Positions 1 to 2,529 of a stretch of DNA of 32,000 nucleotides are shown here, in pieces. Source of the DNA: Patescibacteria group bacterium (GTDB taxonomy: Bacteria > Patescibacteriota > UBA1384 > XYA2-FULL-43-10); the NCBI GenBank assembly GCA_041674405.1, contig JBAYVT010000001.1:150001-182000 (forward strand), read 5' to 3'. A model generated the notes under the pieces. The model worked only from the letters and a program-made list of their open reading frames with translations, searched no databases and had not been told where the DNA came from. Position 1 is the stretch's first letter; each line of letters opens with the position of its first letter. The translations under genes and the position numbers were made by a program.

Positions 1-2529
1 AACAGACAAAACTTCTTTTTCTGAAAAAAGCTTCGGCTCACCGGGCTGATTCACAGAATAAAGGAAGAAGCGGACGACATCGGCGCCAACTTTCTCAAAT
101 TCAGCCATCGGCTCGACAATGTTTCCCTTCGACTTCGACATTTTTTGCCCTTTTTCGTCTAGAATATGTCCTGTCGAGATAACATTTTTAAAACAAGAAT
201 TATTTTTTACAATCGTCGAGATCGCGAGAAGCGTGTAAAACCAGCCTCGGGTTTGATCGATCGCTTCGCAAATGAAATCAGCCGGGTACTGCTCAGCAAA
301 GAGTTCGCTGTTTTCGAATGGATAGTGATATTGGGCGTATGGCATGGAGCCGGAATCGAACCAGACATCCATCACTTCTGGAGTTCGTTTCATCGTTCCG
401 CCGCATTTGCAGGTGAATTCAACCTCATCAACAAATGGTTTGTGAGGATCGAAGGCAGTACCGTCAGAATTTAGATAAAATTTATGAGATAATTCATGAT
501 CAGGGCGTTCGTGTTGGAAGTATCCAGAATAATCCAAGTTCCCTAAAATCATGTTCAATGCACCATTAATGGCCCCGTGTGCAACAATAACGATTGTCTT
601 ACCAGGATATTCTTTTCCAATCTTGGCTAAAAATTCTTTGACCCTTTCTACAACATCAGCTCTCGTTTCCCCCGTGGTGCCAAGCTTAAAATTAAATCTT
701 TGTTCAGGAATTTTCTCAGTCACCAAATAATCTTGAAAATCTTTCCTGTCAAGTCTTTGTTCGGGTGTAAGCTCATTCCATTCGCCGGAGTCCAGCTCAA
801 TGATTCTGTCGTCGAATATCAATTCCGCATCTACATGTTTCTTAACGATTTCTGCGGATTGCTTTGCTCTCAACACCGGAGAAGATATTATTATGTCAAC
901 TTTGTCCTTTATTTTTTTTGCGGTTGTTTCCACCTGAGTCACACCCTTCTCTGTAAGAGGCCATTTATCAAGCGCTTTTGAATCAATATCAAGAATGTTT
1001 CTCTCCGTTTCACCGTGTCGGACAAAGATCAATTTCGTTACCTTAGTATTGCTCTCGTTGAAATCCATAAAATTGCCAACGACTTTTTTCTCGTCACACT
1101 TGTCGCAAGTCCAGACCGGGAGCGGCGTCCCCCAATATCTGTCACGGGAAATTGCCCAGTCATTGATATTTTCGAGCCAATTGCCAAAACGGCCGTGCTT
1201 TAAGTAGGCTGGGTTCCAGTTGATTGTCTCATTATTTTCAAGAAGCTCATCTCGAAGTTTCGACATCGCGATATACCAAGAATCCTTGGCAAAGTAGAGA
1301 AGCGGTGAGTCACAACGCCAGCAGAACGGATAATCATGGGCGAACATCTCTTTTTTAAATAATATTCCACGTTTTTCAAGATCGAGTTTCACTTCTTTGT
1401 CGGCGTCTTTGACAAAGCTTCCTTTGCCAGCGCCGGCAAGCTCCGTCCCCTTTTCATCAACGGTCTTTAAAACCTTGATGCCGTTCTTGCGAAAACCAAA
1501 TTCGTAATCATCCTCACCAAATGCCGGGGCAATGTGGACGATGCCGGTGCCGTCTGAATCGGTGACAAAATCGGCGACAATCAGCTTGTAAACTTTCTCT
1601 CCACCTTCAGAAAATTTATCTCCGTCCGGATAAATCGCTTCGTAATCCGGTTTGTCGGTGAAAGATGGGGCAGCAATTTCCGAACCGGTCAGCTCTTTAA
1701 TGACATTTGCACCAGGCAAAACGGCATCGAGACGGCTTTGCGCAAGTATATACTTCTCTCCGTCTTTTTCTGCCAAAACGTATTTGATATTCGGGCCAAA
1801 TGCTAGAGCGGCGTTGCCTGCGAGCGTCCAAGGCGTTGTCGTCCAGACAAGAAAATACGCATCTTCATGATTTGATTTAACCTTGATATAGACTGATTCC
1901 TCTTCAACATTCTTGTATCCCTGGGCAACCTCATGAGAAGATAACGCCGTACCGCAGCGCGGGCAATATGGCACGACTTTGTGGCCCCTGTAAAGCAAAC
2001 CTCGTTTTTCAGCTTCGGATATCACCCACCAGATCGATTCGATATATTTGGAATCGTAGGTGACATATGGATCTTTCATATCGAGCCAGTAGGCCATGCG
2101 CTCGGTCATCTTTTCCCACTCGGATTTGTAAACAAAAACCGACTCTTTGCAAAGTTTATTGAATTTGGCAACCGAAGCATTTTTGTCGCCCGGAACGATA
2201 TTCTCGATATCGCCCTTGCCAGAAATACCGAGCTCCTTCTCCACCTGAAGCTCTACCGGAAGCCCTTGCGTGTCCCAGCCTGCTTTGCGTCGGACATTGT
2301 AGCCTTGCATAGTTTTATATCGGTTGAAAAGATCTTTGAATGCGCGGTTTAGAACATGATGAATACCAGGCTTGCCGTTGGCTGTCGGCGGTCCTTCATA
2401 GAATACAAAATTGCCTTTCGGGCTATCCTTCCCAAGGCTCTTCTCAAATGTTTTATCCTCTCGCCAAAATTCGAGAATTTTCTTCTCTTCTTCCGGTAAA
2501 TTAAGTTTTGGATCAACCTTTTTGAACAT
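1..2529 (-). CDS. ileS: Isoleucyl-tRNA synthetase, N-terminal ~843 aa (C-terminus lies beyond window start)
   Basis: Manual minus-strand translation from ATG (complement at 2527-2529) reads [31 protein letters not shown]...[16 protein letters not shown] (HIGH-type motif), [39 protein letters not shown] and KMSKSKGN (KMSKS). The frame stays open to position 1. It is missing from the ORF track because it has no stop inside the window. Confidence 0.95.
   Translation of the reverse strand, partial: [843 protein letters not shown]
540..1035 (-). other. Histidine-phosphatase (PGAM/CobC-like) domain inserted inside IleRS
   Basis: Between [11 protein letters not shown] and [22 protein letters not shown] the protein reads [13 protein letters not shown] (RHG at 1012-1020), [23 protein letters not shown] and [13 protein letters not shown] (His codon 577-579). 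These are the hallmark motifs of branch-1 histidine phosphatases. Confidence 0.75.

What the first reader, a model, noticed from the sequence alone, without database searches (positions are those of the whole stretch)
480..1075. Intact histidine-phosphatase (PGAM-like) domain inserted into isoleucyl-tRNA synthetase
About 190 residues are inserted between the Zn-knuckle segment ([13 protein letters not shown]) and [22 protein letters not shown]. They carry the full motif set of branch-1 histidine phosphatases: [33 protein letters not shown] and VAHGAING. Together with the Nudix-bearing LeuRS 5 kb away, both class-I aaRS genes in this window carry extra phospho-ester or pyrophosphate hydrolase domains. 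That looks like a lineage-specific theme rather than a coincidence.
Basis: partly seen in the sequence, partly recalled or inferred. Interest (0 to 1): 0.7.

Follow-up and report, generated by a model that had tools for sequence, protein, structure and literature searches.

The report
Phosphatase domain nested inside isoleucyl-tRNA synthetase
The isoleucyl-tRNA synthetase gene of this candidate-phyla-radiation bacterium really does carry an intact, apparently active phosphatase enzyme spliced into its middle; the same arrangement is common across that bacterial radiation yet I found no description of it, so the embedded enzyme's function is unknown.

Summary
One unbroken minus-strand reading frame (window 2529..1) encodes a type-2 IleRS. 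About 208 residues (nt 451-1074) sit between the two halves of a zinc knuckle, where a solved IleRS2 has about 20. The insert is a branch-1 histidine phosphatase (Pfam PF00300, E 3e-31). An independent assembly is 100% identical and completes the gene (1173 aa, no frameshift).

The insert is not peculiar to this genome. 79 of 80 related Patescibacteria loci, 72 of the 120 closest database hits and 72 of the 150 best 50%-identity cluster representatives carry it at the same site. Rarer variants carry it at a second site, in tandem, or together with a Nudix domain. The catalytic residues are kept in about 234 of 235 copies. The domain evolves faster than the core and differs in presence between close relatives.

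Its nearest solved structures are small-molecule phosphatases (PspA, PhoE, CobC), but it reaches no curated family cut-off. LeuRS relatives likewise often carry Nudix (76 of 120) or other hydrolase inserts, so the lineage theme holds, though the two inserts assort independently.

Databases name these proteins only as IleRS or "class I tRNA ligase family protein", and I found no paper describing the insert. My verdict is a real, widespread, undescribed IleRS variant whose substrate is unknown.

The parts
1..2529 (-). ileS, a type-2 isoleucyl-tRNA synthetase. The window holds aa 1-843 of 1173; the C-terminus lies beyond window position 1.
   Evidence: Single open frame. NCBIfam TIGR00392 ileS scores 904 bits against a cut-off of 621 on the full-length protein from L084. 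The best PDB matches are PmIleRS2 8c8w and T. thermophilus 1ile.
451..1074 (-). Inserted segment, aa 486-693, absent from insert-free IleRS2.
   Evidence: The alignment to 8c8w breaks at query residues 481 and 692. Close relatives such as L004, P0163 and P0184 have a clean gap of about 200 aa exactly here.
502..1041 (-). Histidine phosphatase (branch 1) domain, aa 497-676.
   Evidence: Pfam PF00300, E 3e-31. The AF2 model of the domain has pLDDT 96. The best Foldseek match is PspA 4ij5 at rmsd 2.2 A over 176 columns.
1012..1020 (-). RHG motif (R504, H505, G506). H505 is the predicted phospho-accepting nucleophile.
   Evidence: R and H are each kept in 234 of 235 HP domains examined. They align to the R8-H9 region of PspA, whose deposited mutant is labelled H9A.
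868..870 (-). R554, the second arginine of the phosphate pocket.
   Evidence: Kept in 234 of 235 domains.
796..798 (-). E578, the predicted general acid.
   Evidence: E in 225 and D in 10 of 235 domains.
577..579 (-). H651, the second catalytic histidine.
   Evidence: Kept in 235 of 235 domains.
1096..1107 (-). First half of the zinc knuckle (C475-x-x-C478), immediately upstream of the insert.
   Evidence: Read from the sequence. C475 is invariant and C478 nearly invariant in alignment A1.
403..411 (-). Second half of the zinc knuckle (C707-x-C709), immediately downstream of the insert.
   Evidence: Read from the sequence. C707 and C709 are invariant in alignment A1.
130..144 (-). KMSKS loop of IleRS (aa 796-800).
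2356..2367 (-). Class-I signature motif in its non-canonical form, GIHH (aa 55-58).
   Evidence: Read from the sequence. The G/AXHH motif is described in PMC10485003.
6110..9553 (-). leuS, a leucyl-tRNA synthetase of 1147 aa with two extra inserts. It is context for the 'theme' claim.
   Evidence: Pfam. It is 100% identical to P0275, NCBI 'class I tRNA ligase family protein'.
7493..7846 (-). Nudix domain nested in LeuRS (aa 570-687). The Nudix box GGIEPGESIVDTAKREILEETGY is intact.
   Evidence: PF00293, E 3.6e-14. PF00293 is present in 76 of the 120 best LeuRS hits.
8279..8821 (-). Second LeuRS insert (aa ~245-425) of uncertain nature, only weakly similar to nucleotidyltransferases.
   Evidence: Pfam Aminoglyc_resit, E 1.3e-3, below its cut-off. 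PDB AadB, E 0.07. No NCBIfam hit.

Best explanation
This is a genuine bifunctional gene. It encodes a type-2 IleRS with a complete, catalytically competent branch-1 histidine phosphatase nested in the loop between the two halves of a Cys4 zinc knuckle. That loop follows the WGTPLPVW strand and precedes the second half of the catalytic fold. The zinc site would hold the two ends of the insert together, which probably explains why a whole domain is tolerated there.

Shown: the domain has the standard catalytic set (R504, H505, N511, R554, E578, H651), folds confidently as a short phosphatase of about 190 residues like PspA, PhoE and CobC, and is kept under purifying selection.

Inferred: it hydrolyses a phosphomonoester through a phospho-His505 intermediate, and it acts as an autonomous small-molecule (metabolite or nucleotide) phosphatase tethered to IleRS rather than taking part in the aminoacylation chemistry. 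Tethering, not exact geometry, seems to matter: the same domain family occurs at a second IleRS site, in tandem copies, and as free-standing genes. It is dispensable for IleRS function, because close relatives differ by a clean 200-aa presence/absence.

The architecture is an old, widespread but facultative trait of Patescibacteria (Parcubacteria/Paceibacteria-type and Berkelbacteria-like lineages). It is not a peculiarity of this genome. The substrate is unknown.
For: - **Intact gene.** The frame is open. An independent assembly is identical and completes the gene. NCBI holds the 1173-aa protein.
- **Domain identity.** Pfam E 3e-31. AF2 gives pLDDT 90.6 and pTM 0.87 for aa 1-843, with 93-98 across the insert, and pLDDT 96 for the insert alone. 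The nearest folds are all small-molecule phosphatases: PspA, E. histolytica PSP, Rv2419c, a riboflavin-pathway HFP, CobC and PhoE.
- **Catalytic conservation.** Six residues are invariant in 80 of 80 loci and about 99% kept in 235 domains.
- **Selection.** The insert has dN 0.41-0.51 against 0.03-0.12 in the core, with synonymous sites near saturation in both. The insert's ratio is therefore roughly 0.2 or lower.
- **Distribution.** 79 of 80 genome loci carry it at the same site, as do 72 of 120 hits and 72 of 150 cluster representatives.
- **Recurrence in IleRS.** A second site after KMSKS (P0028, P0139), both sites together (P0046), tandem copies (P0142, P0143) and Nudix plus HP (P0222).
- **Autonomy.** Free-standing proteins of 196-198 aa (P0001-3) are the best matches of this insert and match it reciprocally.
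- **Dispensability.** P0160 (with insert) and P0184 (without) are sisters with 100% bootstrap support, 83% identical, and differ by a clean 201-aa gap. About 29 parsimony changes occur on a 332-sequence tree.
Against: - No activity or substrate has been measured.
- The insert reaches no curated family cut-off: dPGM_arch 90 against 225 bits, PspA 81 against 350, CobC 81 against 163, SixA 32 against 74.5. Fold neighbours give only a class of chemistry.
- Repeated capture of the same domain by the same host protein, and its absence from the 120 best LeuRS hits, argue for some functional tie to IleRS that a purely autonomous metabolic phosphatase does not explain.
- I could not obtain model coordinates. 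The distance and orientation of H505 relative to the synthetic site and the tRNA 3' end are therefore untested.
- The gain/loss count rests on a neighbour-joining tree with many short, poorly supported internal branches.
Confidence: 0.6

Rival explanations
1. The phosphatase repairs or detoxifies tRNA ends next to the synthetase. It would remove a 3'(2')-phosphate, or the phosphate left after pyrophosphate removal, from the CCA end of tRNA-Ile so that it can be charged. This would counter toxins such as the toxSAS enzymes, which pyrophosphorylate tRNA 3' ends to block aminoacylation. The Nudix domain in LeuRS would play a related role.
For: - The same domain has been captured repeatedly by IleRS at two sites and in tandem, and a paralogous free-standing HP gene lies just downstream of ileS in this genome and in L083. 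Both suggest a link to IleRS.
- A phosphoester hydrolase in IleRS and a pyrophosphohydrolase-type domain in LeuRS fit chemistry at a nucleotide 3' end.
- tRNA CCA pyrophosphorylation that blocks charging is documented (10.1101/2021.04.30.441581 and PMC11559606, listed).
- The insert evolves fast and its presence is patchy, as is common for conflict-related genes.
Against: - The nearest folds and sequences are all metabolite phosphatases.
- The inserts are mildly acidic (median pI 6.3; 5.9 here) and show no conserved basic surface signal.
- No PADLOC defence model matches the insert.
- HP and Nudix assort independently among genomes.
- I know of no histidine-phosphatase family member that acts on RNA 3' ends (my own knowledge, not tested here).
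- The variable insertion sites argue against a fixed geometry facing A76.
Confidence: 0.12
2. The domain fills a metabolic gap. It would be the phosphoglycerate mutase or phosphoserine phosphatase of lineages that lack a recognisable one, embedded in an essential gene so that it is always expressed.
For: - The best NCBIfam hits are archaeal-type dPGM and PspA, and the best fold match is PspA.
- A CPR metabolic survey reports PGM missing from several shallow Parcubacteria clades, possibly because the enzymes are too divergent to detect (PMC7304191).
Against: - All scores are far below the equivalog cut-offs.
- The dPGM-type substrate residues that I recall (Tyr92, Lys100, Arg116/117 in E. coli numbering) have no obvious counterparts in the sequence. 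This is by inspection and from memory, not a formal test.
- Frequent clean loss among close relatives is hard to reconcile with a core glycolytic step.
Confidence: 0.1
3. The domain is a protein phosphatase of the SixA, Sts or PGAM5 type. It would reverse phosphorylation of IleRS itself or of a translation partner, for example after attack by a kinase toxin.
For: - Some branch-1 members are protein phosphatases (my own knowledge).
- An APH-family kinase gene lies near ileS here (window 5100-6101) and directly upstream of ileS in L083.
Against: - SixA scores only 32 bits against a cut-off of 74.5, and the fold neighbours are metabolite phosphatases.
- The APH neighbour is conserved only in the closest relative.
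Confidence: 0.06
4. The insert is an artefact or a dead remnant: a chimeric assembly, a frameshifted pseudogene, an intein-like selfish element, or a catalytically inert spacer.
For: - The insert has lower G+C (0.38-0.41) than the IleRS core (0.44-0.48).
- It is much more divergent than the core: 47-48% against about 90% identity with the closest relative.
Against: - An independent assembly is identical, and more than 200 homologues carry the insert at the same site.
- The catalytic residues are conserved and selection is purifying.
- The model confidence is very high.
- There are no intein splice residues at the junctions (VVG|NFMDF and TAF|DPHKP; sequence) and no flanking repeats.
- The same lower G+C is seen in the LeuRS inserts and in accessory genes of the same contig.
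Confidence: 0.02

Closest known systems
Type-2 isoleucyl-tRNA synthetase (IleRS2), e.g. Priestia megaterium IleRS2 (PDB 8c8w) and Thermus thermophilus IleRS (1ile)
   Same: The host protein matches along its whole length: phmmer E 4e-212, Foldseek E 5e-74 with TMq 0.70, and NCBIfam ileS above its cut-off. It has the KMSKS loop, the editing domain, both zinc knuckles and the type-2 C-terminal domains (Anticodon_1 and DUF5915). It also carries the G/AXHH signature variant described for IleRS2.
   Different: None of the solved IleRS structures returned by the searches has a domain in the zinc-knuckle loop. PmIleRS2 has about 20 residues there, against about 208 here.
Short branch-1 histidine phosphatases: PspA phosphoserine phosphatase (4ij5), PhoE (1h2e), CobC alpha-ribazole phosphatase (6nru), Rv2419c
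   Same: The fold matches (rmsd 2.2-3.7 A), the length is similar at about 190-210 aa, and the full catalytic set is present.
   Different: Those enzymes are free-standing. This one is nested in another enzyme and reaches none of their curated family cut-offs, so its substrate cannot be transferred from them.
Bifunctional RNase H / acid phosphatase (NCBIfam PRK07238)
   Same: It is a precedent for a CobC/PhoE-like histidine phosphatase fused to an enzyme that handles nucleic acids. The insert scores 78 bits on the phosphatase half of that model.
   Different: That is an end-to-end fusion, not a nested insertion. The score is far below the cut-off of 326, and the host enzyme is different.
IleRS with an N-acetyltransferase domain (NCBIfam NF040702, ileS_w_GNAT)
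   Same: It is another curated case of IleRS carrying an extra enzymatic domain. In this genome a separate GNAT gene starts one base after the ileS stop codon.
   Different: The added domain and its position differ. This protein scores 309 bits against a cut-off of 1999.
Appended domains of eukaryotic aminoacyl-tRNA synthetases (WHEP, GST-like, EMAPII and others; my own knowledge)
   Same: In both cases a lineage-specific extra domain has been added to a housekeeping synthetase.
   Different: The eukaryotic additions are mostly terminal, non-catalytic interaction modules. Here a complete hydrolase is nested inside the catalytic domain of a bacterial enzyme.

Membership tests
Isoleucyl-tRNA synthetase (NCBIfam TIGR00392, ileS equivalog) | Whole-protein score at or above the curated cut-off | tested here: met
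   904 bits against a cut-off of 621 on the full-length 1173-aa protein from L084.
Isoleucyl-tRNA synthetase, class Ia | Class-I signature motifs (HIGH-type and KMSKS) and a CP1 editing domain | tested here: met
   KMSKS lies at aa 796-800. The signature is GIHH, the G/AXHH variant known in IleRS2. The editing domain matches PDB 1wk8, E 1e-31.
Type-2 IleRS (IleRS2) | [quoted passage not shown] | tested here: met
   The best PDB matches are PmIleRS2 and TtIleRS, well ahead of the type-1 enzymes 8c9f and 1ffy. Anticodon_1 and DUF5915 are present at the C-terminus.
Histidine phosphatase superfamily, branch 1 (Pfam PF00300) | Pfam gathering score | tested here: met
   109-113 bits against 21.7; E 3e-31 and 1.6e-32.
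Histidine phosphatase superfamily, branch 1 | Catalytic set: RHG nucleophile His, two Arg, a second His and an acidic proton donor | tested here: met
   R504, H505, N511, R554, E578 and H651 are present here, invariant in 80 of 80 loci and about 99% kept in 235 domains.
Histidine phosphatase superfamily, branch 1 | Alpha/beta fold of the family | tested here: met
   AF2 pLDDT 96. Foldseek gives PspA at rmsd 2.2 A over 176 columns with probability 1.00.
Histidine phosphatase superfamily, branch 1 | Phosphatase or mutase activity through a phospho-histidine intermediate | not testable with these tools
   Requires biochemistry.
Cofactor-dependent phosphoglycerate mutase (dPGM) | Curated NCBIfam cut-offs | tested here: not met
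   NF038349 scores 90 against 225, TIGR01258 scores 31 against 82, and the other dPGM models score 22-51 against 261-409.
Phosphoserine phosphatase PspA | NCBIfam NF045917 cut-off | tested here: not met
   81 bits against 350, although PspA is the best fold match.
Alpha-ribazole phosphatase CobC | NCBIfam TIGR03162 cut-off | tested here: not met
   81 bits against 163.
Phosphohistidine phosphatase SixA | NCBIfam TIGR00249 cut-off | tested here: not met
   32 bits against 74.5.
Intein or other self-splicing insertion | Cys/Ser/Thr at the N-terminal junction, and His-Asn followed by Cys/Ser/Thr at the C-terminal junction | tested here: not met
   The junctions read VVG|NFMDF and GTAF|DPHKP. There are no flanking repeats, and the insert is a complete enzyme fold.
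Known anti-phage defence proteins (PADLOC-DB) | Match to a defence-system model | tested here: not met
   No hit for the insert, the free-standing HP, the GNAT, APH, CYTH or the LeuRS insert. Only the separate Nudix gene at 10334-10768 hits a candidate model, PDC-S07.

The most novel reading that the evidence does not exclude
The hydrolase domains nested in Patescibacterial class-I synthetases (histidine phosphatase in IleRS, Nudix in LeuRS) could be built-in repair or immunity modules. They would act on the tRNA 3' end, or on toxic or aberrant adenylate-type nucleotides, at the point of charging. For example, they could strip phosphate or pyrophosphate groups added to the CCA end by translation-targeting toxins. 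That would make these synthetases self-protecting enzymes, a role not described for any aminoacyl-tRNA synthetase.
Probability: 0.1. Interest if true: 0.9.

Novelty: new variant of a known kind. Interest (0 to 1): 0.6.

Why it matters
Aminoacyl-tRNA synthetases are among the most conserved enzymes known. In bacteria they are generally thought to lack the extra domains that decorate the eukaryotic enzymes.

Here a complete hydrolase with intact catalytic residues sits inside the catalytic domain of IleRS across a large part of the candidate phyla radiation. LeuRS in the same radiation carries parallel Nudix, alpha/beta-hydrolase and other inserts.

If the phosphatase acts on something connected with translation (a tRNA end, a nucleotide by-product or a toxin product), this would be a new layer of synthetase function. 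It would also be a natural case of tolerated domain-in-domain insertion useful to protein engineers.

If it is an unrelated metabolic enzyme, it is still a clear example of how organisms with very small genomes pack functions into essential genes. It would also warn that metabolic reconstructions of these organisms miss enzymes hidden inside housekeeping proteins.

A practical point follows. NCBI's pipeline downgrades many of these proteins, including this one, to "class I tRNA ligase family protein". The insertion may be the cause.

Tried and rejected
1. **Word-indexed search with the insert alone.** It returned only seven free-standing phosphatases and briefly suggested the insertion was unique. 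The genome scan and the full-length searches showed this was a sensitivity limit.
2. **Recombination versus fast evolution.** This was a possible explanation for the 47-48% insert identity against about 90% core identity with the closest relative. Codon analysis showed synonymous sites near saturation even in the core, so the test cannot detect a separate history. The pattern is adequately explained by an extremely constrained core and an ordinary accessory domain.
3. **Mobile-element or intein signatures.** I found no junction residues and no flanking direct or inverted repeats of note.
4. **Defence-system models.** PADLOC gave no hit for the insert or most neighbours.
5. **RNA elements.** There was no Rfam hit in the window and no T-box upstream of ileS. 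The promoter and terminator scan was at chance level.
6. **Conserved neighbourhood.** GNAT, the free-standing HP, RNHCP, GrpE and APH are shared only with the two closest relatives. A free-standing HP gene lies within 10 kb of ileS in only 3 of the loci examined.
7. **RNA-binding character.** The inserts are mildly acidic, with no basic signature.
8. **Context of the free-standing relatives P0001-3.** No ileS lies nearby on their short contigs, and a metagenome scan found nothing.
9. **Shared origin of the Nudix domains.** The LeuRS Nudix and the Nudix of IleRS P0222 are not specifically related.
10. **Literature.** Nine full-text searches found no description of an IleRS-phosphatase or LeuRS-Nudix architecture.
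11. **Geometry.** The structure tools return no coordinates, so I could not measure the distance from H505 to the synthetic site or to tRNA A76.
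Full report
**What is in the window.** The minus strand from position 2529 down to position 1 is one uninterrupted reading frame of 843 codons that runs off the window. It begins [10 protein letters not shown] and carries the marks of a class-Ia synthetase. Pfam gives tRNA-synt_1 (E 7.5e-117), split in two by His_Phos_1 (PF00300, aa 497-676, E 3e-31). The excised insert alone scores E 1.6e-32.

Against solved structures, the host aligns to Priestia megaterium IleRS2 (8c8w) in two pieces: query aa 3-481 to chain residues 2-465, and query aa 692-840 to chain residues 485-634. 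About 208 residues here therefore replace about 20 there. The insert (nt 451-1074) lies between CDKC (aa 475-478) and CKC (aa 707-709), the two halves of a zinc knuckle.

**Is it an artefact?** No. The LeuRS of the window is 100% identical to a database protein. Its encoding contig from an independent Logan assembly (L084) is 100% identical to window 1-19547 and continues past the window edge. It gives a complete 1173-aa IleRS with the same insert and no frameshift. That exact protein is NCBI MFA7243836.1 on a 395,669-bp MAG contig, named only "class I tRNA ligase family protein". It scores 904 bits on the NCBIfam ileS model, whose cut-off is 621.

The insert has lower G+C than the IleRS core (0.38-0.41 against 0.44-0.48), but so do the LeuRS inserts and the accessory genes of the contig. 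There are no intein junction residues and no flanking repeats.

**How common is it?** My first search, with the insert alone, found only seven free-standing phosphatases. That was a sensitivity limit of the search method.

- A scan of one genome per GTDB species returned 80 loci, all from Patescibacteria-type MAGs. In 78 of them tblastn gives a single alignment running straight through the insert.
- In a MAFFT alignment, 79 of the 80 carry about 200 extra residues at the same site. Only L004 lacks them.
- Of the 120 closest proteins in the 5.8-billion-protein collection, 72 carry precomputed PF00300.
- Of the 150 best 50%-identity cluster representatives, 72 carry the domain.

The NCBI organism labels on insert-bearing proteins and loci include Berkelbacteria, Komeilibacteria, Uhrbacteria, Nealsonbacteria, Nomurabacteria, Taylorbacteria, Campbellbacteria, Paceibacterota and Minisyncoccia. 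Some loci carry other labels, such as Saccharibacteria or Gammaproteobacteria, which I did not verify. No source names the phosphatase; the proteins are called isoleucine--tRNA ligase or class I tRNA ligase family protein.

**Variants.** Pfam and my own profile show several departures from the common form:

- The domain sits at a second site, after KMSKS and before the anticodon-binding domain, in P0028 and P0139.
- It sits at both sites in P0046.
- It occurs in tandem in P0142 and P0143.
- It occurs together with a Nudix domain inserted near the editing domain in P0222.

The second-site copies belong to the same phosphatase family as the first-site copies, at 35-40% identity.

**Is the domain functional?** The catalytic residues expected of a branch-1 histidine phosphatase are R504, H505, N511, R554, E578 and H651. 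They are invariant in 80 of 80 loci. Over 235 domains, R504 and H505 are each kept in 234, R554 in 234 and H651 in 235; E578 is E in 225 and D in 10; N511 is kept in 209.

AlphaFold2 with a 76-sequence alignment gives pLDDT 90.6 and pTM 0.87 for aa 1-843, and the insert is the most confident part of the model at 93-98. Modelled alone, the insert reaches pLDDT 96. Its closest solved folds are the short phosphatases that act on small molecules:

- Hydrogenobacter PspA (rmsd 2.2 A over 176 columns);
- Entamoeba phosphoserine phosphatase;
- mycobacterial glucosyl-3-phosphoglycerate phosphatase;
- a riboflavin-pathway phosphatase;
- CobC and PhoE.

It reaches none of the curated NCBIfam cut-offs: dPGM_arch 90 against 225, PspA 81 against 350, CobC 81 against 163, SixA 32 against 74.5. 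The chemistry is clear; the substrate is not.

**How it evolves.** The insert changes much faster than the host. Against the closest relative (P0158), the core is about 90-92% identical and the insert 47-48%. Codon analysis shows synonymous sites near saturation even in the core. The core is under extreme constraint (dN/dS about 0.02-0.05). The insert has dN 0.41-0.51, giving a ratio of roughly 0.2 or lower if its synonymous divergence is at least that of the core. That is ordinary purifying selection, not decay.

Presence is patchy. On a neighbour-joining tree of 590 core columns and 332 sequences, 217 carry the domain and 115 do not, with about 29 parsimony changes. That count is an upper estimate, because many internal branches are short.

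Two cases are well supported. P0160 (with insert) and P0184 (without) are sisters in 100% of bootstrap replicates. They are 83% identical and differ by a clean 201-residue gap exactly at the site. P0159 groups with two insert-free sequences at 87% support.

In the window's own Berkelbacteria-like clade of 49 sequences, most IleRS lack the insert, and the 9 bearers form at least four separate lineages. The domain is therefore dispensable for IleRS function and is repeatedly lost, or possibly regained by recombination between alleles.

The free-standing proteins P0001-3 (196-198 aa) are the best matches of the window's insert, and they match it reciprocally. The same kind of enzyme therefore also exists on its own.

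**Context.** In this genome ileS is followed by a GNAT acetyltransferase gene that starts one base after its stop codon. Next comes a free-standing histidine phosphatase paralogue (206 aa, only about 30-35% identical to IleRS-embedded copies), then RNHCP and GrpE on the other strand. This order is shared only with the two closest relatives. PADLOC finds no defence model for the insert or for most neighbours.

**The LeuRS claim.** The LeuRS at 9553..6110 carries a Nudix domain with an intact Nudix box (aa 570-687). It also has a second insert of about 170 residues that is only weakly similar to nucleotidyltransferases. Among the 120 best LeuRS hits:

- 76 carry Nudix;
- several carry alpha/beta-hydrolase domains instead or as well;
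- many Berkelbacteria-type LeuRS are plain enzymes of about 820-880 residues;
- none carries a histidine phosphatase.

Matching contig lengths between searches suggest that all four combinations of IleRS insert and LeuRS insert occur. The contigs of 165,009, 867,751 and 187,319 bp supply three combinations and the window supplies the fourth. The theme is real and belongs to the lineage, but the two inserts are not obligate partners.

**Interpretation.** I commit to the following. This is a bifunctional IleRS in which an autonomous phosphomonoesterase for small molecules is tethered inside a surface loop pinned by zinc. Four things are shown: the gene is intact, the domain is a histidine phosphatase, its catalytic residues and fold are conserved, and it is widespread but dispensable. 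Three things are inferred: catalysis through phospho-His505, a small-molecule substrate, and independence from the aminoacylation chemistry.

One observation fits this least well. The same domain family has been captured by IleRS at two sites and duplicated there, yet it is absent from the LeuRS hits examined. That hints at a functional tie to IleRS. This keeps alive the more interesting reading, in which the domain acts on the tRNA 3' end or on a nucleotide by-product, perhaps against toxins that phosphorylate tRNA ends (background). I give that about 0.1.

**Novelty.** Nine full-text searches found no description of the architecture. A 2026 preprint that annotated the domain architectures of 96,219 IleRS sequences mentions neither "phosphatase" nor "Patescibacteria". 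The feature is visible in automated Pfam annotation but appears unnamed and unstudied. I rate it a new variant of a known kind, of moderate to high interest.

Noticed in passing
window 2356-2367 (minus strand), IleRS aa 55-58: The class-I signature motif is the non-canonical GIHH rather than HxGH. This G/AXHH form is reported to give IleRS2 hyper-resistance to mupirocin (PMC10485003). The consensus of the 76-sequence alignment reads GIHH as well.
   Followed up: partly
L084:20541-21014 and L084:21007-21627 (just beyond window position 1): A GNAT acetyltransferase gene starts one base after the ileS stop codon and is followed by a free-standing histidine phosphatase paralogue of 206 aa. NCBIfam has a curated model for IleRS fused to a GNAT domain (NF040702), so the GNAT-IleRS association recurs elsewhere.
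   Followed up: partly
window 8279-8821 (minus strand), LeuRS aa ~245-425: A second LeuRS insert of about 170 residues has no confident family. The Pfam Aminoglyc_resit hit (E 1e-3) is below its cut-off, the PDB AadB match has E 0.07, and there is no NCBIfam hit. LeuRS relatives of similar length (P0276, P0288, P0304, P0322; about 1150 aa) may share it. Other LeuRS relatives carry alpha/beta-hydrolase domains (P0280, P0298, P0323, P0385).
   Followed up: partly
window 12862-22709 (plus strand): Two large non-ribosomal peptide synthetase genes (2077 and 984 aa; AMP-binding, PP-binding and Condensation domains) are followed by a phosphopantetheinyl transferase gene. This seems unusual for a small-genome Patescibacteria MAG.
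   Followed up: no
window 3285-6101 and 10334-10768: A cluster of enzymes that act on nucleotides or phosphate esters surrounds the two synthetase genes: two separate Nudix genes, a CYTH-domain protein and an APH-family kinase. The Nudix gene at 10334-10768 matches the candidate defence model PDC-S07 in PADLOC (E 8e-17). In relative L083, an APH kinase, a HIT-family hydrolase and a YbaK-like tRNA-editing protein lie upstream of ileS.
   Followed up: partly
loci L017, L024, L026, L030 and others (IleRS zinc-knuckle region): Some insert-bearing IleRS have lost the cysteines of the zinc knuckle that flanks the insert yet keep the phosphatase domain. Zinc pinning is therefore not strictly needed once the domain is in place.
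   Followed up: no
P0005 (322 aa): A related histidine phosphatase is fused to a cytidylyltransferase-like domain (PF01467). This is another fusion of the family to a nucleotide-handling enzyme.
   Followed up: no
NCBI names: Many insert-bearing IleRS and LeuRS proteins, including both in this window, are named only "class I tRNA ligase family protein" by NCBI, whereas insert-free relatives get the specific name. The nested domains may be what prevents the specific name from being assigned.
   Followed up: no
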